In this document: positions 49,515 to 57,506 of the stretch, one piece after another
Layout: each line of letters begins with the position of its first letter
How positions within the stretch are numbered: position 1 is the stretch's first letter
Position numbers and translations under genes: made by a program
UHGV virus genome: UHGV-0218015
From: a virus
Length of the DNA: 64,000 nucleotides
Strand: one strand, 5' to 3'
Notes under the pieces: generated by a model
Told to the model about the DNA's origin: nothing
Seen by the model: the letters and a program-made list of their open reading frames with translations, nothing else
The model's database searches: none

Positions 49515-50045
49515 ATGGCTAAAACTTTTCAACAGCAGCTTATCGAACTTATTAACACTAAAAACAGCTCTCTGAGCTCCGCTCTCACCGTAGCTGATGT
49601 TGACTTTAGTGCTGTCGCTGACTTCACCGGAGAAGCTGGCCGCAACACTAAAATTACTCTGACCGCCAAGGCAGAAAGCCAGAACTTCAAAGGCGAGAAA
49701 GAATTCCACTATACTCGTCTTTCCTGCGACATCGTTGGTGAAGTTGAAGTAACTGCACCTACTACCGATTTCGATTCACCAACGAAAATCCTGGCAAAAG
49801 TTAACGCAGCCATGGCTGAGAAAGGGTACACCGATGACGAGTTCGGTGAAAACGACCTGCAAACTATTTCCCGTGAAGAAGAAGGCAAAACCATTTACGT
49901 AGTAACTGTTGTGGCTGGACACCTGAAGTTCCTGCCAGGTACTGTTGCAACGTATAAAGTTACTCCTCCGGCTATTGAGAAAGTAGTATTGAACGGTTTG
50001 GAAGGTGAACTGGATGGCTTCACCGCACCAGCGCCTAAAGAGTAA
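49515..50045 (+). CDS. member 3 of paralog family (176 aa)
   Basis: FQQQLIELINTKNSSLSSALTVADVDF...NTKITLTAKAESQNFKGEKEFHYTRL parallels 50113 product. Confidence 0.55.
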   Translation: MAKTFQQQLIELINTKNSSLSSALTVADVDFSAVADFTGEAGRNTKITLTAKAESQNFKGEKEFHYTRLSCDIVGEVEVTAPTTDFDSPTKILAKVNAAMAEKGYTDDEFGENDLQTISREEEGKTIYVVTVVAGHLKFLPGTVATYKVTPPAIEKVVLNGLEGELDGFTAPAPKE

Positions 50046-50112: not shown

Positions 50113-50643
50113 ATGGCAGCTACTAACCAGATGATGTTAGTTGCGCTTTATAATGCTGCTAACACAGAGCTACCGCATCAGGTCACTGATAAAGAGGTAA
50201 CTTTTGGTCAACCTGTCGCTCTTGAAAAGGGCGATAAAAATACCAAAGTTACCATGACCGCACGTACAGAGTCTGAAAATTTTAAAGGCGCAATCGAACT
50301 GCATTACGATCGTCTGGAACCTGGCGTTATCGGACGCATTGAGGTAACGGACGATTTGGCTCTCTGGACTGGAGAAAACGAACTACGCGACCGATTACAG
50401 TTCTACATCAATAAAGTAAAACCTGACGACTCTATCGCGCCTGGTGACGTTGAGTACACCACCGAAGACCAGAAAGACGAACACGATAGCGTCACTCTGC
50501 GTACGGTAACTTGTACCGTTACTGAAAAGAACCTCCGTTATAAACCGGGTGTAATGGCAACTTTCGTAATTACGCCGAAAGTTGTTGATAATCGTATTGA
50601 CCTGGCCACCACCGACGGTGAACTTGACGGCTTTACTGCTTAA
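50113..50643 (+). CDS. member 4 of paralog family (176 aa)
   Basis: NQMMLVALYNAANTELPHQVTDKEVTF...NTKVTMTARTESENFKGAIELHYDRL. Confidence 0.55.
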   Translation: MAATNQMMLVALYNAANTELPHQVTDKEVTFGQPVALEKGDKNTKVTMTARTESENFKGAIELHYDRLEPGVIGRIEVTDDLALWTGENELRDRLQFYINKVKPDDSIAPGDVEYTTEDQKDEHDSVTLRTVTCTVTEKNLRYKPGVMATFVITPKVVDNRIDLATTDGELDGFTA

Positions 50644-51387: not shown

Positions 51388-51935
51388 TCATCTTCTCCTT
51401 TAACTAAACCTAGCTCAATTAACAATTCAAAATCGATTTGGCGAAATTTGTTATCAAAACCAGAATCCCAATCGATGTGTAATCCTTGTCGTTCTTCATC
51501 GGTAAGTTCAGGATAAATTAAATCATGGAACGCTTCACGTTCCTCGTAAAATCCATCGATAGTAGAATCTGGATTCCGCATTGCGTAAATCGTGATGCCC
51601 GGAAAGGATAATCCTAATGCTGTTATAGATTCGACGCTTGGTTCTTGCAAGGCCCTGCGTAATAGCACGATTTTATGTCGTGGAAAATCTAGTACACGTT
51701 GTTCAAACCCAGGATTCCGTTTCTCAATTTCTGTAACTGAAAGATCGGTGAGTTCTGTGCAATACATTGGGATAACTACAGTTACTCCGTGGCGAATTAA
51801 TAATCGTTTAACATCGTCAGTGAAGTCTTCACCATTAATTTGCACATAACAACCAAACAATTTTGTAGTTTCTAAAAATTTTTCCAGAAAACGGAATTTA
51901 CGCTTCGTAATATTGTGGATCAGAATTGGCTTCAT
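51363..51935 (-). CDS. hypothetical protein (190 aa) in rSAM/Cys-rich operon
   Basis: - strand ORF overlapping the SPASM rSAM gene end by 38 nt. Confidence 0.5.
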   Translation of the reverse strand: MKPILIHNITKRKFRFLEKFLETTKLFGCYVQINGEDFTDDVKRLLIRHGVTVVIPMYCTELTDLSVTEIEKRNPGFEQRVLDFPRHKIVLLRRALQEPSVESITALGLSFPGITIYAMRNPDSTIDGFYEEREAFHDLIYPELTDEERQGLHIDWDSGFDNKFRQIDFELLIELGLVKGEDECLLLTKA

Positions 51936-53220
51936 CTTTGGTTTCTCTCAATTGTTTTTCTTTCTGGGTACGTTCACGTACGCAACGAGGGCAATAACAC
52001 ATGCTATTGTCATGAAAATCTTTCACTGACGTCGTGCCCATTTTCTGTTTCCAATATTCCGCAACCATCAACTTTGCAGTTGTCCAGCCGCATTGACGGC
52101 GTTCAGCGTGATAAGCTTTGCGATCTTCTAGCGTCCCTTCTCCATTCTCGTAAGATGCAGCCGCACAACTACCACAAGCGTGCTTCATTGGACAACCTAA
52201 ACAGGTTTCAGGATAGTTGGTGTATTGCGTCTGAATCTCTTCCAGCAATTTCCCGTCATCTAAGCTAACGAATTCCCGGCCAACTAATTCAAATACGGCA
52301 GAACGTGATGTTACGGTTGACATGAAACGGTTACAACCGAAGATCTTACGATCAAATCCTAAGCAGGTCATGTGTGTTAACGTACCGCAGAACGGGCGTA
52401 AACGTTCTGGATTCAAACGTACAGTATCGTTATACAATAACTGATCACGCCAGTTTGGTTCCCAGATAGTATCAAAATCTAACCCGTCTGGAATGATGTG
52501 CGACAAAGTGTTACGTGGGTTGGTGTGTAAGCCCTTCTCAACCCAATAATCAACCACGTCCATCATCTGCAATGCGATTGAAGTAGCCATGCTCCGTGGC
52601 ATAATGTCTTCGAAGGTTACGTTGCCAGAAATAGTTCCGCCGCCAGTAATATCAATTAATGATTTCATTCCAGCAGCATAGAACGGTAACGTTTCCAACG
52701 TAAAGGTCGCTTTTACACCAAGTTCTGCAATACCGACTTCTTTTAAGTAGTTATAGCCCCGCACAGCGGCCTCGTAAGATCCTTCACGAGTTGTTGTAAA
52801 AATCCGGTACTTATCGTGCGATTCGGGCAATCCATCAATAGACACGCCGATAGAAAGCCTGTCTTTCCAACGTTCAATAATTTCTCTATTCAAAGGTCTA
52901 TCTAACAACGTTCCGTTAGTAGAGATGCTAAACATAAACGGCCGATTATGTTTTTCGCATAACTCTTCTGCGGTTTCAAATGCCGCCTTTAATAGTTTAG
53001 GCTGCATAAACGGCTCACCACCGATGATATCGATAACGACCTCGATGTTTGTCAGATCTTTATCTCGTTCAAAACAAGCGTGTAGAAAATCAACAATATC
53101 CGCCGCTTTGTTATTACGGGGATACTTACGTTCGTAACAATACTCACAGTCCAAGTTACACGATAAATTTGTAACAATTTGATAAGTCAGTTGTTTTGGA
53201 TAACTATTTTCTTGACTCAT
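51898..53220 (-). CDS. radical SAM enzyme with C-terminal SPASM-like auxiliary Cys cluster domain (440 aa), putative peptide-modifying maturase
   Basis: N-terminal CNLDCEYC (C-x3-C-x2-C), GGEP SAM-binding motif, C-terminal CGTLTHMTC...GC and CLGCPMKHACGSC (C-x2-C-x5-C-x2-C) clusters. Confidence 0.8.
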   Translation of the reverse strand: MSQENSYPKQLTYQIVTNLSCNLDCEYCYERKYPRNNKAADIVDFLHACFERDKDLTNIEVVIDIIGGEPFMQPKLLKAAFETAEELCEKHNRPFMFSISTNGTLLDRPLNREIIERWKDRLSIGVSIDGLPESHDKYRIFTTTREGSYEAAVRGYNYLKEVGIAELGVKATFTLETLPFYAAGMKSLIDITGGGTISGNVTFEDIMPRSMATSIALQMMDVVDYWVEKGLHTNPRNTLSHIIPDGLDFDTIWEPNWRDQLLYNDTVRLNPERLRPFCGTLTHMTCLGFDRKIFGCNRFMSTVTSRSAVFELVGREFVSLDDGKLLEEIQTQYTNYPETCLGCPMKHACGSCAAASYENGEGTLEDRKAYHAERRQCGWTTAKLMVAEYWKQKMGTTSVKDFHDNSMCYCPRCVRERTQKEKQLRETKDEANSDPQYYEA

Positions 53221-54142
53221 TTTCCGCCCCTCTATTACGCTCTGCCATCACTACACGACGAATGTACTCGTAAGCTTCTACACCTATTGAGGAGGCTAGT
53301 TGGTTACACCCTGCTTTTGTAGTTATTGGTACATTTTTAAGTTGGTTTTCTTCCCCGTCCGCGTCTATCCTGAGACTTTCGCTACAGACATTACAAGCAT
53401 GATCGAAGAATCTGTTTACAATAAAACCGCAGTCTCTAGAATTTAGAACGTTTAATCTTTCTATATTCTCCTGAATTCTAAAATACCCGTAAATAAAGTT
53501 CATAACGTGATCGGGAGATAACGGTTTTGGCATGTTTTTATCTAGTAATAAGGACATGGAACGAAAACCGTAATGATAGATAGCAGTATGTAATTGAATG
53601 ATATCTTCATGCCATCTTTTGTTGGATAAATTCTCCCTCGTAACAACAGCCCAAGTGTTAACATTATTCAAGCTGTAAATTACTTCTAACGCTTCATGAC
53701 AATTATCATCAATAAAGCGCTTAAAAGGCCGTTCGGAAAGATTAAACCCATCGATGCTAACATATATAGCATCGAATTGTTTTAACAACGGTAGATGCGA
53801 TTTACGCATTTTTAAACCGTTCGTGAACATCTGGTGTTTGAGTTCAGGACGGATCGTTTTTAATTCGTCGACAAACGCCTCAATCTTTCGAGTTGCCAGT
53901 AGCGGTTCACCGCCAGTCCACTGAATTTCAGTAATGGTTGGGTTAGACGCCAACGCTTTCAAAATTCGTTCACGTTGAAACTCTCGCGGAGAATCTTCAC
54001 GATGCATGTAATAGGCTCCGCCGCAGAAGCTACAGTCCAGATTACATTTGGATGTAGCAACTACGGACAATACGGTGGGTTTATTGTATAAACGATTCGA
54101 TAACCTTGGCTCTACGTCGGTTGTCATTGCAGGTGAGTCCAT
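53204..54142 (-). CDS. radical SAM enzyme (312 aa), paralog of 56177..57091
   Basis: SKCNLDCSFCGG (C-x3-C-x2-C), QWTGGEPLL; C-terminal C-x12-C-x2-C; three nucleotide-identical patches with the paralog. Confidence 0.8.
   Translation of the reverse strand: MDSPAMTTDVEPRLSNRLYNKPTVLSVVATSKCNLDCSFCGGAYYMHREDSPREFQRERILKALASNPTITEIQWTGGEPLLATRKIEAFVDELKTIRPELKHQMFTNGLKMRKSHLPLLKQFDAIYVSIDGFNLSERPFKRFIDDNCHEALEVIYSLNNVNTWAVVTRENLSNKRWHEDIIQLHTAIYHYGFRSMSLLLDKNMPKPLSPDHVMNFIYGYFRIQENIERLNVLNSRDCGFIVNRFFDHACNVCSESLRIDADGEENQLKNVPITTKAGCNQLASSIGVEAYEYIRRVVMAERNRGAENESRK
53457..53539. repeat. 83-nt patch 100% identical to 56421..56503 (between radical SAM paralogs)
   Basis: CTTTCTATATTCTCCTGAATTCTAAAATACCCGTAAATAAAGTTCATAACGTGATCGGGAGATAACGGTTTTGGCATGTTTTT present in both genes; further identical patches 53782..53818 = 56747..56783 and 54002..54055 = 56966..57019. 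Confidence 0.85.
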
Positions 54143-54149
54143 CTATTTT

Positions 54150-55037
54150 TTAAATATAGCCAATGGATAACAAAGGATCGTCGTAAGCGTTAACTCCAGG
54201 TTTTAATACAAACGGTGAATTGTAAGCCTCAATAATACGATTAAGGTCTTTATAACGCACGTTTAAACGTTCTAGATCCGCTAACGTTACGTTACGTTCC
54301 AATACCGCCGACACTGCCGCTTTTTCTTCATCAGTTAACGTGACTTTCGTCATTAAGAAACTAACAAGTTTCGCTAAATCTGCTTCCGATGACGGATGTT
54401 CACCAATACGTGTTTGAATTAAATGCTGCATCCATGGTTTACGAATACGTTTTGTGATTTCATGTTCATCTGTAAGGGCAACCCATACTGAACGTTCACG
54501 ATCCCACATAAATTTGTAACTGTACGCCATCAGATCTGCTAAACAGTTGATGCCAAGTTCCTCGTAACCTTCTATTTCAATATACGGTTCAGTATCAACA
54601 TAGTTTTTTGTTTCTACAGGAACCAGGGCATAAAAGTACGGGAATGAACCAAGATAGTCTGGAGACCACCAACGTCGTGCTACAGGCTTCGCATTCAACT
54701 CTTTAAATGGCGTAAAGAACAATTCCAAATCTACAGAATTATTCAGAATACCGTCACTAAAGAAATATTTACCGTCAACCAATTTACCGCGTAAATCTGA
54801 ATCACCGGTAAACACCACTACGCTTTCTGCTGTCAGATCGCGTATTTTAAAAGTGTTTTCTACTGAATAGTTATTGCGATCGGTAAAAAAACGACCACGC
54901 ACTTTGGGCCATTCGCCAGGTAACTGGGTTAACAAACGAACTTTATCTTCCAAATGAGCGCGTATTGAATCGGGGGAAGAAATATGAAGTGGGTGGTTGA
55001 AAATTGTTTTATAGGCTAAATGCAAATCGTTTTTCAT
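54150..55037 (-). CDS. hypothetical protein (295 aa) in rSAM/Cys-rich operon
   Basis: - strand ORF, 7 nt downstream gap to rSAM gene. Confidence 0.5.
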   Translation of the reverse strand: MKNDLHLAYKTIFNHPLHISSPDSIRAHLEDKVRLLTQLPGEWPKVRGRFFTDRNNYSVENTFKIRDLTAESVVVFTGDSDLRGKLVDGKYFFSDGILNNSVDLELFFTPFKELNAKPVARRWWSPDYLGSFPYFYALVPVETKNYVDTEPYIEIEGYEELGINCLADLMAYSYKFMWDRERSVWVALTDEHEITKRIRKPWMQHLIQTRIGEHPSSEADLAKLVSFLMTKVTLTDEEKAAVSAVLERNVTLADLERLNVRYKDLNRIIEAYNSPFVLKPGVNAYDDPLLSIGYI

Positions 55038-55049
55038 TGATTACTCCAA

Positions 55050-55568
55050 TTATTTTACGGTCAATCTGACGTTCAAGGTATAGAACCCGCCACGCCATTG
55101 CCTGCCGGTAACTTCAAATTCTGCAGTAAAGCCGTTTGATTTACTCGGTTGCTGCTTAATCGCCATGCTTCCGCCGGAATTACTTAATACTTCTAATGAG
55201 ATAGAAGCAGAAGATGCATTACCGATAGAGTCTATCTTAAAACTAGCCGCGTCTGTAAAATTAACAGTGATACCATTACCCATTGCAACTTGAGGGTAGG
55301 CGTAGGACTTTCCAGACAGTAACGATTTAAAGACCCTTATCGGTTTCTCTCTACCGGTTGACGTTACGCATTGAATAAAGACAGCCCCAGTAGAGAAATT
55401 GATACGAACAGTATCTTTAGCGTGTAGCTTAGACTCAACATAAACAACGGCTTTGTTGTCGTAGGTTGGTCTTGAAGGGGTTGGCGTAGAACCACCGCTA
55501 GAGGGCTTACTTACCCCCCCCCGCCCCCTTACTACAGCTACCGCTGCACGACCAACTACATCCGCCAT
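55050..55568 (-). CDS. hypothetical protein (172 aa) with Gly/Ser/Pro-rich N-terminal linker; 5' end overlaps Cys-rich peptide gene C across a G-homopolymer
   Basis: Only in-frame ATG is at 55568, 62 nt inside gene C; N-terminal codons span GGGGGCGGGGGGGGG (C9-G-C5 on + strand, 55514-55528). Confidence 0.4.
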   Translation of the reverse strand: MADVVGRAAVAVVRGRGGVSKPSSGGSTPTPSRPTYDNKAVVYVESKLHAKDTVRINFSTGAVFIQCVTSTGREKPIRVFKSLLSGKSYAYPQVAMGNGITVNFTDAASFKIDSIGNASSASISLEVLSNSGGSMAIKQQPSKSNGFTAEFEVTGRQWRGGFYTLNVRLTVK

Positions 55569-55716
55569 TACAATTATAATGACTTAAAGGTAATCCTGCG
55601 AGATTGTTGGTTGAGGAAACCGTTCCTTGGTTTGCAATATAGTTGTTTGCATTAGCGGTGGTGATATATCCCTCCGCCGTTACTAATCTGTCGCGTATGT
55701 TTTTAAGACTTATCAT
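55507..55716 (-). CDS. Cys-rich peptide C (69 aa): conserved leader plus short C-x-x-x repeat core; putative RiPP precursor
   Basis: MISLKNIRDRL leader; core HYNCNGGCSWSCSGSCSK parallels peptides A and B; starts 3 nt after the stop of peptide B. Confidence 0.55.
   Translation of the reverse strand: MISLKNIRDRLVTAEGYITTANANNYIANQGTVSSTNNLAGLPLSHYNCNGGCSWSCSGSCSKGAGGGK
55514..55528. repeat. homopolymeric tract C9-G-C5 (+ strand) at the junction of peptide C and the 172-aa ORF
   Basis: TTACCCCCCCCCGCCCCCTT read directly from sequence. Confidence 0.9.
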
Positions 55717-55719
55717 TTC

Positions 55720-56118
55720 TTATCTTCCAGTACACGATTGCTGACATCCGCCTCGACATGAACCTGAACATGTTCCGGTGCAACTACTTGAACAACCGCC
55801 CGAGCAATTACCTGTGCACCCTCCTGAGCAGGTACTGCTACAACCTGTGCAACCTGTACTACATCCTGAAACACAGTTCGCTGAACAGGAAGAACCGCAG
55901 CCGCCGGAGGCGTTGCCGGTACAGCCGCCCGAACAACTTGAGCACGTCCAGCTACAGCTACCTCCACAGTCATAGTGATTTCTCGGCTGTCCTCCAAACA
56001 GATCGCTATTATTAGTGGCTTTACCACGAATATAGTTCTGCACCGCACCTGTATTTTTTAATGCAGTAGAGTCTATGTTATCTAGCCGGGCCTTTAAAGA
56101 AGATAAACCAATCGCCAT
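55720..56118 (-). CDS. Cys-rich peptide B (132 aa): about 50-aa leader plus (C-x-x-x)n core with about 21 Cys; putative RiPP precursor
   Basis: Leader LSSLKARLDNID...; core DCGGSCSWTCSSCSGGCTGN...CSGGCSSSCTGTCSGSCRGGCQQSCTGR with Cys at nearly every fourth position. Confidence 0.65.
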   Translation of the reverse strand: MAIGLSSLKARLDNIDSTALKNTGAVQNYIRGKATNNSDLFGGQPRNHYDCGGSCSWTCSSCSGGCTGNASGGCGSSCSANCVSGCSTGCTGCSSTCSGGCTGNCSGGCSSSCTGTCSGSCRGGCQQSCTGR

Positions 56119-56176
56119 TTTAATACCTACTGGTTTAGTGCCCCCTAGGACACATTATAATTCACTTTCTGTAAAA

Positions 56177-57091
56177 TTATCGTAGTTTTTCTGAGACTCT
56201 ATTCTTAGCCCCTACCACACGACGTATATAGTCGTAAGCATCTAATCCAACCTTTCTGGCCAAGTCACTACAGCCGTGTTGCGTTACGATTTCAACGTTC
56301 TTTACTTGGTTCTGGGCACCGTCAGACTCAATGCGAAAACAACGACTACATGTGTTACAGGGTTCATCAAATAACGCATTTAGCGTAAACGCACATTCAC
56401 TTCGATTGGACGAATTCAGTCTTTCTATATTCTCCTGAATTCTAAAATACCCGTAAATAAAGTTCATAACGTGATCGGGAGATAACGGTTTTGGCATGTT
56501 TTTGTCCAAAACCAGCGACATCTCACAAAAACCATAATGGTAAATGTGGTTATGTAACGCAATTATATCTTCGTACCAACGTTTATCCCCAATACGCTCG
56601 CGTGTCAAAACCGCCCAAGTACGAATATTTTTCAATTCGTAAATTGTCTCCAAAACCTCGTATTGTTTTTCTTCGATAATCCGCATGAACGGACGCTCTG
56701 ATTCTTTGAATCCATCCATGCTAAAAAAGATACTATCAAAACCCTTTAACAACGGTAGATGCGATTTACGCATTTTTAAACCATTGGTATACAGGTAATG
56801 TTCGCAACGAGGATACTTCTCCCTTATCTCTTCTATAAGGGTATCAATTTTACGCGTGGCAAGTAATGGTTCGCCCCCTGACCATTGGATATTTGTGATA
56901 GTCGGGTTATTTTCCAGCGCCTCGATAATACTTTCCTTTTGTACTTCTGCGGTTGTATCCTCTCTATGCATGTAATAGGCTCCGCCGCAGAAGCTACAGT
57001 CCAGATTACATTTGGATGTTGTAATCACGTTTAACGTTCTCGGATTACTGTAAAGCTTATCGGATACCGTCGGTCTAGTAAGTTCTTCCAT
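56177..57091 (-). CDS. radical SAM enzyme (304 aa), paralog of 53204..54142
   Basis: SKCNLDCSFCGG, QWSGGEPLL; shares identical nucleotide patches and PKPLSPDHVMNFIYGYFRIQENIERLN with the paralog. Confidence 0.8.
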   Translation of the reverse strand: MEELTRPTVSDKLYSNPRTLNVITTSKCNLDCSFCGGAYYMHREDTTAEVQKESIIEALENNPTITNIQWSGGEPLLATRKIDTLIEEIREKYPRCEHYLYTNGLKMRKSHLPLLKGFDSIFFSMDGFKESERPFMRIIEEKQYEVLETIYELKNIRTWAVLTRERIGDKRWYEDIIALHNHIYHYGFCEMSLVLDKNMPKPLSPDHVMNFIYGYFRIQENIERLNSSNRSECAFTLNALFDEPCNTCSRCFRIESDGAQNQVKNVEIVTQHGCSDLARKVGLDAYDYIRRVVGAKNRVSEKLR

Positions 57092-57110
57092 TCGAATTGA
57101 TCCTTATTTT

Positions 57111-57506
57111 TTATGGGTTAGAACAACCACCTGCACAAGAACCACTACACCCCGAGGAACAACGTCCAGCACATCCCCCACTACAAGTCCCACTACATCC
57201 TGAACAACCACCCGAACACGTTCCGCTACAACCACTGCATTGATTACCACACGCAGAGGAACAGCTTCCTACGCACACCGATGTACATGTACCTGAACAA
57301 CTCGTACAACCATGCGTACAACCGTTTGAGCATGTCCAGCTACAGCTACCTCCACAATCTAATCGACCGGGTGTCCAACCTGAAAATGAATCAGCAGCGT
57401 TATGTGCTTTCGACGCAACTTGCGGATCAACACGTGGGCCAGTTGCCATTTGGTTCTCTACGTTGGTGATTCGGTCACGCACATTTTTAACACTGATCGC
57501 CATCAC
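57111..57506 (-). CDS. Cys-rich peptide A (131 aa; ATG at 57503 likely start): leader plus (C-x-x-x)n core with about 23 Cys; putative RiPP precursor
   Basis: Leader MAISVKNVRDRITNVENQ; core DCGGSCSWTCSNGCTHGCTSCSGTC...CSGGCAGRCSSGCSGSCAGGCSNP; AAGGA RBS. Confidence 0.65.
   Translation of the reverse strand: MMAISVKNVRDRITNVENQMATGPRVDPQVASKAHNAADSFSGWTPGRLDCGGSCSWTCSNGCTHGCTSCSGTCTSVCVGSCSSACGNQCSGCSGTCSGGCSGCSGTCSGGCAGRCSSGCSGSCAGGCSNP

What the first reader, a model, noticed from the sequence alone, without database searches (positions are those of the whole stretch)
53204..57091. Patches of 100% nucleotide identity between the two radical SAM paralogs suggest recent gene conversion and a recombination-prone cassette
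The paralogs 53204..54142 and 56177..57091 are diverged over most of their length but contain three perfectly identical nucleotide blocks: 53457..53539 = 56421..56503 (83 nt), 53782..53818 = 56747..56783 (37 nt) and 54002..54055 = 56966..57019 (54 nt). A mosaic pattern like this indicates gene conversion or homologous exchange rather than simple divergence. The direct repeats about 3 kb apart could also mediate deletion or duplication of the intervening peptide B/C and accessory genes, generating cluster variants.
Basis: seen in the sequence. Interest (0 to 1): 0.6.

Follow-up and report, generated by a model that had tools for sequence, protein, structure and literature searches.

The report
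Gene-conversion islands between phage rSAM paralogs
Two old, diverged copies of a radical SAM enzyme gene in a gut jumbo phage keep three short stretches exactly identical by repeatedly copying them from one copy to the other; this is a clean but ordinary case of gene conversion.

Summary
The two minus-strand radical SAM genes are rSAM2a (53204-54142) and rSAM2b (56177-57091). They are 66% identical in nucleotides (58% outside the blocks). They share three exact blocks at one constant offset of 2964 nt: 84, 54 and 38 nt.

Shuffles never give runs this long. Synonymous differences are 1/55 codons inside the blocks and 79/124 outside.

The other two-copy relatives (metagenome and IMG/VR contigs) show the same three islands. 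Their edges differ slightly, and at least 8 substitutions are shared by a and b of one genome but differ between genomes. That is concerted evolution. Single-copy relatives, including all 62 SPN3US-like phages, diverge normally in the islands.

With the islands masked, b branches outside (a + SPN3US rSAM2). It is therefore an old or acquired paralog, not a recent duplicate. Conversion ran mostly from b to a.

The islands are the three most conserved protein motifs of the family.

The predicted deletion, reciprocal and double-crossover chimeras do exist, but only as three short, singleton metagenome contigs. No variant seen on a long contig is chimeric, and assemblers demonstrably break at these repeats. 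Cassette rearrangement is therefore unproven.

The parts
53204..54142 (-). rSAM2a: radical SAM gene, 312 aa (307 aa from the ATG at 54127). It overlaps the start of rSAM1 by 17 nt. It is the positional ortholog of the single 'radical SAM superfamily protein 2' of SPN3US-like phages.
   Evidence: ORF. Pfam Radical_SAM and Fer4_12. Synteny. Masked tree.
56177..57091 (-). rSAM2b: second radical SAM gene, 304 aa, inserted between pep131 and pep132. It is absent from SPN3US-like phages and from the L002 lineage.
   Evidence: All 62 phage records have one copy. The masked NJ tree places b outside a + SPN3US with 97% bootstrap.
53456..53539 (-). Island 3, copy in a (84 nt). Encodes KNMPKPLSPDHVMNFIYGYFRIQENIER: the loop after a predicted core strand plus the first half of the following helix.
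   Evidence: Exact match to 56420-56503. The b state replaces the ancestral a state at 9 island-3 sites. Structure.
56420..56503 (-). Island 3, copy in b (84 nt).
   Evidence: Two roughly 225 kb contigs start exactly at 56503, and other contigs end inside this island or its twin.
53781..53818 (-). Island 2, copy in a (38 nt). Encodes NGLKMRKSHLPLL, including the conserved TNG motif.
   Evidence: Exact match to 56745-56782. L003 and L004 differ at 4 sites here, yet a = b in each genome.
56745..56782 (-). Island 2, copy in b (38 nt).
54002..54055 (-). Island 1, copy in a (54 nt). Encodes TSKCNLDCSFCGGAYYMH, the CX3CX2C [4Fe-4S]/SAM cluster loop.
   Evidence: Exact match to 56966-57019. Family conservation.
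56966..57019 (-). Island 1, copy in b (54 nt).
   Evidence: Contig L033 starts inside it.
54150..55037 (-). hyp295 (phrog_8030, unknown function). Lies between the paralogs. Co-varies with rSAM2a: 69-89% aa identity between lineages.
55050..55568 (-). hyp172: variable ORF that overlaps the end of pep69. It is present only in the window clade, and its reading frame depends on a poly-G tract.
55507..55716 (-). pep69: short Cys-rich peptide, paralog of pep131 and pep132 (phrog_6085).
55720..56118 (-). pep132: CxxxC-repeat peptide. Hits TIGR04114 (Cys-rich repeat radical SAM target) above its cutoff.
57111..57506 (-). pep131: CxxxC-repeat peptide immediately upstream of rSAM2b. Hits TIGR04114.
51898..53220 (-). 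rSAM1: 440-aa radical SAM/SPASM-type peptide maturase. Its best NCBIfam matches are the CXXX-repeat-target maturase and PapB, both below cutoff.

Best explanation
Recurrent short-patch interlocus gene conversion (non-reciprocal homologous recombination) between two old, directly repeated radical SAM paralogs of an SPN3US-related jumbo phage.

Shown:
- rSAM2b is an extra gene inserted between two peptide genes. It is phylogenetically older than the split between rSAM2a and the SPN3US gene.
- Three 38-95 nt islands are kept identical within each genome while they differ between genomes.
- The islands coincide with the three most conserved protein motifs. These are also where an unconverted a gene and b are most alike: 91%, 89% and 77% identity against 61% elsewhere, and they hold the three longest exact a-b matches (17-20 nt).
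- In the islands the a copy mostly carries b-lineage states, so the direction was mainly b to a.

Inferred mechanism:
- During phage replication and recombination, a strand end from one paralog invades the other where amino-acid constraint has preserved near-identity.
- The heteroduplex cannot extend into flanks that are about 42% divergent, so tracts stay short.
- Once identical, an island is the best substrate for the next event, so the process sustains itself. New mutations are either erased or copied to the partner.
- Homogenisation is tolerated only in the shared catalytic core (cluster loop, TNG motif, post-strand loop and helix). The diverged remainder presumably carries paralog-specific function, such as which Cys-rich peptide is modified.
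- Crossovers in the islands would delete or duplicate the 2964-nt unit. Candidates exist but are unverified, and none is seen in complete genomes.
For: Identity blocks and statistics.

Same three islands in the two-copy lineages: window 84/54/38 nt; L008 95/51/38; L003 83/60/47; L004 (= L009) 84/60/47.

Concerted substitutions: alignment columns 113, 317, 323, 326, 332, 342, 350 and 674 differ between genomes, but a = b within each. L003 and L004 (a 98%, b 96% identical in nucleotides) differ at four of these columns.

Micro-variation among near-identical strains: L026_a has a private SNP that splits island 1; L027 island 2 is 41 nt; L014 and L008 island 3 is 95 nt.

Single-copy a genes and JN03 diverge inside the islands at 4-22 sites per island.

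Direction: at 13 in-island sites (2 in island 1, 2 in island 2, 9 in island 3) the single-copy a equals the SPN3US state, while the window a carries the b state.

Masked tree: A + SPN3US monophyly in 97/100 bootstraps, A + B in 3/100. Masked aa identity is a-b 51%, a-JN03 58%, b-JN03 46%.

Pre-existing similarity is highest in the islands.
Against: No direct observation of a conversion event; everything is comparative.

All two-copy genomes other than the window (whose source is not known to me) are metagenome-assembled or IMG/VR contigs, so no isolate genome was examined at nucleotide level.

Why all lineages share the same three islands could also reflect one ancestral set of events plus a few later touch-ups, rather than a high ongoing rate.

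The NJ placement of b could be affected by rate differences, although b is the slower-evolving gene among strains.

The recombinase responsible is unknown.
Confidence: 0.88

Rival explanations
1. Adaptive 'linker' islands. The identical stretches are maintained by selection as recombination sites, so that the N-terminal, central and C-terminal segments of the two maturases (and the genes between them) can be shuffled, deleted or duplicated. That would generate cluster variants, as proposed for conserved motifs in T-even tail-fibre and adhesin genes.
For: Three chimeric contigs have crossovers exactly in the islands. L017 is pep131 - [b 5'|a 3'] - rSAM1, the 2964-nt deletion product. L019 is hyp295 - [a 5'|b 3'] - pep132, the reciprocal junction. 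L018 is b|a|b between islands 1 and 3. The cluster sits next to tail-fibre genes, where shuffling is common (PMC3157838).
Against: Each chimera is a singleton on a 1.4-2.7 kb contig. The 36 other full-length or near-full-length protein variants in the three 90% clusters are pure a or pure b, and most of them are seen on contigs of 110-230 kb. Assemblers break at exactly these repeats, so low-coverage mis-joins are expected in a phage found in more than 100 blocks of the sequence collection. Neutral, homology-seeded conversion already explains the islands without invoking selection for recombination.
Confidence: 0.08
2. Recent tandem duplication followed by fast divergence everywhere except three strongly constrained segments. 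On this view the islands are remnants of the original identity and there was no exchange.
For: The islands coincide with the most conserved protein motifs.
Against: Synonymous sites outside the islands are near saturation (79/124). b branches outside a + SPN3US. The a genes of single-copy relatives carry different, SPN3US-like states inside the islands. Substitutions are shared by a and b within genomes but differ between genomes, and island edges differ between lineages. Another conserved aa stretch is not identical in nucleotides.
Confidence: 0.03
3. Nucleotide-level functional constraint, such as an RNA structure, an embedded regulatory site or extreme codon selection, keeps the same sequence in both genes.
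For: None specific. The islands are exact.
Against: The islands differ between lineages while staying identical within genomes. Single-copy orthologs are free to vary there. The folded islands are no more stable than shuffles, with z = +1.4, -0.8 and -1.5.
Confidence: 0.01

Closest known systems
Interlocus (ectopic) gene conversion with partial-gene concerted evolution in prokaryotes, for example mtrA-1/mtrA-2 in methanogens (PMC4632066) and the survey of long-lasting concerted evolution (PMC6053082, abstract as listed only)
   Same: Two paralogs lie in one operon or cluster. Only part of each gene is homogenised, the rest stays diverged, and paralogs are more alike within a genome than orthologs are between genomes.
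   Different: Here the converted tracts are tiny (38-95 nt) and split into three islands. The genome is a lytic jumbo phage. The partner gene looks like an inserted old or foreign paralog rather than a local duplicate.
Recombination at conserved motifs in T-even phage tail-fibre and adhesin genes (Tetart et al. 1996, 1998, as summarised in PMC3157838)
   Same: Short conserved stretches inside otherwise diverged phage genes are the places where homologous exchange happens, and the locus is in the tail-fibre region.
   Different: Those exchanges are mainly between different phages and swap host-range domains, and they have been shown experimentally. Here the exchange is between two paralogs in one genome, in enzyme genes, and only non-crossover patches are firmly documented.
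CXXX-repeat peptide / radical SAM maturase systems (NCBIfam TIGR04114 and TIGR04115) and PapB-type ranthipeptide maturases
   Same: CxxxC-repeat peptides lie next to SPASM-type radical SAM enzymes. pep131 and pep132 pass the TIGR04114 cutoff, and the best matches of rSAM1 are TIGR04115 and PapB. The rSAM2 model resembles SuiB, CteB and anSME.
   Different: The system is phage-encoded, sits beside tail-fibre genes, and has two or three maturase-like genes and three peptides. Maturase scores are far below the family cutoffs. The chemistry is untested.

Membership tests
Interlocus gene conversion / concerted evolution | In the affected segment, paralogs within a genome are more similar than orthologs between genomes. 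| tested here: met
   In all two-copy lineages a = b in the islands, while orthologs differ at columns 113, 317, 323, 326, 332, 342, 350 and 674.
Interlocus gene conversion / concerted evolution | Synonymous sites are homogenised inside tracts but diverged outside, so protein constraint alone does not explain the pattern. | tested here: met
   1/55 against 79/124 synonymous differences, p = 6e-17. The control motif GGEPLLATRKI is 24/33 identical.
Interlocus gene conversion / concerted evolution | Runs of identity are longer than expected from overall divergence (GENECONV-type test). | tested here: met
   Observed runs 84/54/38. The longest run in 20,000 shuffles was 32 (sites) or 41 (codons).
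Interlocus gene conversion / concerted evolution | Phylogenetic incongruence between tracts and the rest of the gene. | tested here: met
   With the islands masked, b lies outside a + SPN3US at 97% bootstrap. Within the islands, a and b of one genome are identical.
Interlocus gene conversion / concerted evolution | Relatives that lack the donor copy do not show the converted sequence. | tested here: met
   L002, L010, L011, L012 and JN03 (a only) differ from b at 4-22 sites per island.
Direct-repeat-mediated deletion or duplication of the cassette | A chimeric junction gene with the crossover inside a repeat, and loss or gain of exactly the intervening unit, in a verified molecule. | tested here: inconclusive
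   L017 (deletion junction), L019 (reciprocal junction) and L018 (double crossover) fit exactly. All are short singleton metagenome contigs. No variant seen on a long contig is chimeric, and assemblers break at these repeats.
CXXX-repeat radical SAM target / maturase system (TIGR04114 and TIGR04115) | Target peptide passes the TIGR04114 cutoff. | tested here: met
   pep132 scores 22.3 bits and pep131 20.1 bits; the cutoff is 20.
CXXX-repeat radical SAM target / maturase system (TIGR04114 and TIGR04115) | Maturase passes the TIGR04115 cutoff. | tested here: not met
   rSAM1 scores 118.9 bits against a cutoff of 350, although the alignment is nearly full length. rSAM2a and rSAM2b do not list this family among their best hits.
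CXXX-repeat radical SAM target / maturase system (TIGR04114 and TIGR04115) | The enzyme modifies the Cys-rich peptide, for example by thioether cross-links. | not testable with these tools
   Needs biochemistry or mass spectrometry.

The most novel reading that the evidence does not exclude
The three identity islands work as built-in recombination linkers. In natural populations they shuffle the segments of the two maturases (b|a, a|b and b|a|b chimeras) and delete or duplicate the 2964-nt unit that carries two of the three Cys-rich peptide genes. This would give the phage a standing pool of maturase and peptide cluster variants next to its tail fibres. The three chimeric contigs would then be real minority genomes.
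Probability: 0.1. Interest if true: 0.65.

Novelty: new member of a known kind. Interest (0 to 1): 0.4.

Why it matters
This is an unusually clean, multi-genome example of short-patch gene conversion inside a virulent jumbo phage. Conversion acts between old or acquired paralogs and is confined to the catalytic-core motifs of an enzyme.

Practical consequences:
- Trees or identity values for these radical SAM genes are misleading unless the islands are masked.
- Assemblies of this common gut phage break or mis-join at the islands.

It also marks which parts of the two maturases are interchangeable (cluster loop, TNG motif, the PKPLSPDHVMNF segment) and which are paralog-specific. That is a useful starting point for working out how the phage's CxxxC-repeat peptides are matched to their enzymes. 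It does not reveal a new kind of mechanism.

Tried and rejected
- **Assembly collapse.** Rejected, because the pattern recurs in many independent assemblies.
- **RNA-structure constraint.** Rejected, because fold z-scores are unremarkable and the island sequences differ between lineages.
- **Recent duplication.** Rejected on the masked phylogeny and on synonymous saturation.
- **L002-type single-copy genomes as a x b deletion products.** Rejected. They keep pep131, pep132, pep69, hyp295 and a pure a gene. Their pep131/pep132 junction is as tight as in SPN3US-type JN03, so absence of b is ancestral and b is an insertion.
- **Chimeric contigs L017-L019 as proof of rearrangement.** Rejected as proof: singletons, short, no chimeric variant seen on a long contig, and contig ends at the islands.
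- **Megablast against phages.** Found only distant SPN3US-like and Erwinia phages, with no close isolate.
- **Literature searches.** Searches for SPN3US radical SAM genes and for CXXX-repeat maturases found nothing on this cluster.
Full report
**1. The observation**

The region holds two minus-strand radical SAM genes: rSAM2a (53204-54142, 312 aa) and rSAM2b (56177-57091, 304 aa). Both match Pfam Radical_SAM and Fer4_12.

A protein-guided codon alignment gives 62% amino-acid and 66% nucleotide identity. Exact + strand matches, all at offset 2964:

| Island | Copy in a | Copy in b | Length |
|---|---|---|---|
| 3 | 53456-53539 | 56420-56503 | 84 nt |
| 1 | 54002-54055 | 56966-57019 | 54 nt |
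| 2 | 53781-53818 | 56745-56782 | 38 nt |

- There is no third copy of any block in the window.

**2. Is it more than chance or protein constraint?**

- Outside the islands the genes are 57.7% identical.
- In 20,000 shuffles the longest run reached 32 nt (sites) or 41 nt (codons), and the third-longest never exceeded 23. The observed runs are 84/54/38.
- Among codons that encode the same residue in both genes and have synonyms, 79/124 differ outside the islands and 1/55 inside (Fisher p = 6e-17).
- The conserved stretch GGEPLLATRKI outside the islands is only 24/33 identical in nucleotides. Amino-acid conservation alone therefore does not give nucleotide identity.

**3. Context**

The window is the tail-fibre region of an SPN3US-related (Seoulvirus-like) jumbo phage.

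Gene order on the minus strand:
- a 1728-aa fibre protein
- a 441-aa virion protein
- pep131
- rSAM2b
- pep132
- pep69
- hyp172
- hyp295
- rSAM2a
- rSAM1

- pep131 and pep132 are CxxxC-repeat peptides that pass the NCBIfam TIGR04114 cutoff.
- The best matches of rSAM1 are the CXXX-repeat-target maturase TIGR04115 and PapB, both below cutoff.
- An AlphaFold model of rSAM2b (pLDDT 80.5) resembles the peptide-modifying enzymes SuiB, CteB and anSME.

All 62 related phage records in GenBank have a single rSAM2.

**4. Relatives**

Scans of IMG/VR, JGI/NCBI and ENA assemblies gave the following.

| Group | Loci | Content |
|---|---|---|
| a | L008/L013, L014-L016, L022-L035 | Many contigs of about 225 kb from the window's own clade |
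| b | L003; L004 = L009 | A second two-copy lineage; b 95% and a only 75% aa identical to the window |
| c | L002, L010-L012 | A single-copy lineage with pep131, pep132 and pep69 adjacent and no rSAM2b |

- The pep131/pep132 junction in the single-copy lineage is as tight as in SPN3US-type JN03. rSAM2b is therefore an insertion in the two-copy lineages.
- Protein clusters place this phage in Shigella flexneri isolate assemblies, which hints at the host.

**5. Concerted evolution**

In every two-copy lineage, a and b are identical in the same three places, but the edges differ:

| Genome | Island 3 | Island 1 | Island 2 |
|---|---|---|---|
| window | 84 | 54 | 38 |
| L008 | 95 | 51 | 38 |
| L003 | 83 | 60 | 47 |
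| L004 | 84 | 60 | 47 |

- At alignment columns 113, 317, 323, 326, 332, 342, 350 and 674 the genomes differ from each other, while a = b within each genome.
- L003 and L004 are 98% (a) and 96% (b) identical in nucleotides. They differ at four of these columns and still have a = b.
- Among strains 98-99.8% identical to the window:
  - a private SNP in L026_a splits island 1;
  - island 2 is 41 nt in L027;
  - island 3 is 95 nt in L014 and L008.
- Single-copy a genes and JN03 differ from b at 4-22 sites per island.

This is the signature of repeated exchange. It is not the signature of nucleotide-level constraint or of a remnant of a recent duplication.

**6. Age and direction**

- With the islands masked, an NJ tree of 30 family members puts a together with the SPN3US-type genes (97/100 bootstraps) and b outside them. 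A + B monophyly appears in 3/100.
- Masked identities are a-b 51%, a-JN03 58% and b-JN03 46%.
- rSAM2b is therefore an old paralog lost elsewhere or, more simply, a gene acquired from an unsampled relative.
- At 13 in-island sites (2 in island 1, 2 in island 2, 9 in island 3) the single-copy a shares the SPN3US state while the window a carries the b state. Conversion was therefore mostly b to a.
- This changed the a protein: YYQVQD became YFRIQE.

**7. Why these three places**

- The islands encode the three most conserved stretches of the family:
  - the CX3CX2C cluster loop;
  - the TNGLKMR..HLPLLK segment;
  - the MPKPLSPDHVMNF.YGY segment.
- All three lie on core loops and the starts of helices in the model.
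- Between an unconverted a (L002) and b, these are already the most similar segments: 49/54, 34/38 and 65/84 identical against 61% elsewhere. They hold the three longest exact matches, 17-20 nt.
- That fits homology-seeded strand invasion, with heteroduplex extension blocked by divergent flanks.
- It also fits islands that sustain themselves once they are identical.
- These mechanistic steps are inference from general knowledge of homologous recombination.
- RNA folding of the islands is unremarkable.

**8. Rearrangement of the cassette**

A protein search with b found three chimeric proteins.

| Contig | Length | Structure | Interpretation |
|---|---|---|---|
| L017 | 2733 nt | pep131 - [b up to island 3 \| a from island 3] - rSAM1 | The 2964-nt deletion |
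| L019 | 1366 nt (MEGAHIT k141) | hyp295 - [a \| b, crossover in island 3] - pep132 | The reciprocal junction |
| L018 | 1482 nt | b with an a-type segment between islands 1 and 3 | Double crossover |

I do not count them as proof, for three reasons.
- Each is a singleton on a short contig.
- The 36 other full-length or near-full-length protein variants in the three 90% clusters are pure a or pure b. Most of them occur on contigs of 110-230 kb.
- At least six contigs end at or inside the islands:
  - L031 and L034 start exactly at 56503;
  - L015 and L016 end inside island 3 of a;
  - L035 starts inside island 3 of b;
  - L033 starts inside island 1 of b.

Assembly graphs therefore branch at these repeats. 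In a phage seen in more than 100 blocks of the collection, a few low-coverage mis-joins are expected. That last point is my own reasoning about de Bruijn assemblers. Read-level checks are needed.

**9. Comparison and verdict**

The phenomenon is interlocus gene conversion with partial-gene concerted evolution. This is known in prokaryotes, for example mtrA-1/mtrA-2 (PMC4632066). It is also akin to exchange at conserved motifs in T-even tail-fibre and adhesin genes (PMC3157838).

What is particular here:
- very short, tripartite islands;
- a lytic jumbo phage;
- partners that are not recent duplicates;
- a location in a phage CxxxC-peptide / radical SAM cluster.

It is a new, well-documented instance of a known process. 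It has practical consequences for phylogeny and assembly, and it gives a testable hint about which enzyme parts are interchangeable.

Noticed in passing
window about 55510-55518 (minus-strand G9 at the 3' end of pep69): A poly-G tract varies among near-identical genomes of about 225 kb: G9, G10 or G11. The gene calls change with it. G9 gives pep69 (69 aa) plus overlapping hyp172. G10 gives 68 aa plus a 77- or 96-aa ORF. G11 (L030) gives a single 222-aa pep69-hyp172 fusion. The tract is absent (G6 or none) in the L002, L003/L004 and SPN3US lineages. It could be a phase-variable or frameshift-prone tract, or homopolymer sequencing error.
   Followed up: partly
window 51898-57506: A phage-encoded cluster lies directly beside the tail-fibre genes. 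It holds three CxxxC-repeat peptides with a shared N-terminal region and a CGGSCSW(T/S)CS motif, plus a SPASM-type maturase-like rSAM1 and one or two smaller rSAM2 enzymes. The peptides pass the TIGR04114 cutoff, and the best hits of rSAM1 are TIGR04115 and PapB. The function in the virion or in infection is unknown.
   Followed up: partly
window 53204-55037 (rSAM2a + hyp295) compared with 51898-53220 and 56177-57091: The rSAM2a-hyp295 pair is far more diverged between lineages (75-80% and 69-89% aa) than the flanking rSAM1 (93-96%), rSAM2b (95%) and the 441-aa virion protein (91-96%). This suggests a co-varying, swapped or fast-evolving two-gene module.
   Followed up: no
window 55938-55971 and 57326-57359: pep132 and pep131 share a 34-nt stretch with 2 mismatches, including a 23-nt exact run. 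It covers the CGGSCSWTCS motif in otherwise diverged genes, and may be a small conversion patch of the same kind.
   Followed up: no
window 53468, 53490, 56474, 56503, 57004 (contig ends of L015, L016, L035, L031/L034, L033): Several near-complete public assemblies of this phage end at or inside the identity islands, so the islands fragment or circular-break the assemblies.
   Followed up: yes
window 56119-56176 (between rSAM2b and pep132): The 58-nt spacer that came in with rSAM2b carries a motif, TTTTACAGA(A/G)A(G/A)TGAATTATAATGTG, conserved between the window and L003. It could be a phage promoter for pep132. The b-less lineages have only a 12-nt spacer there.
   Followed up: no
window 49515-50045 and 50113-50643: Two tandem 176-aa paralogs (DUF7941 in the gene calls of related contigs) lie on the + strand just upstream of the cluster.
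   Followed up: no
protein clusters of rSAM2a and rSAM2b: Cluster members P0030 (rSAM2b-type, EFY2245190.1) and P0044 (rSAM2a-type, EFY2245766.1, locus tag DQB62_03960) come from Shigella flexneri records. Many samples look like human-gut metagenome sets. This suggests a Shigella or E. coli host for this uncultured jumbo phage.
   Followed up: no
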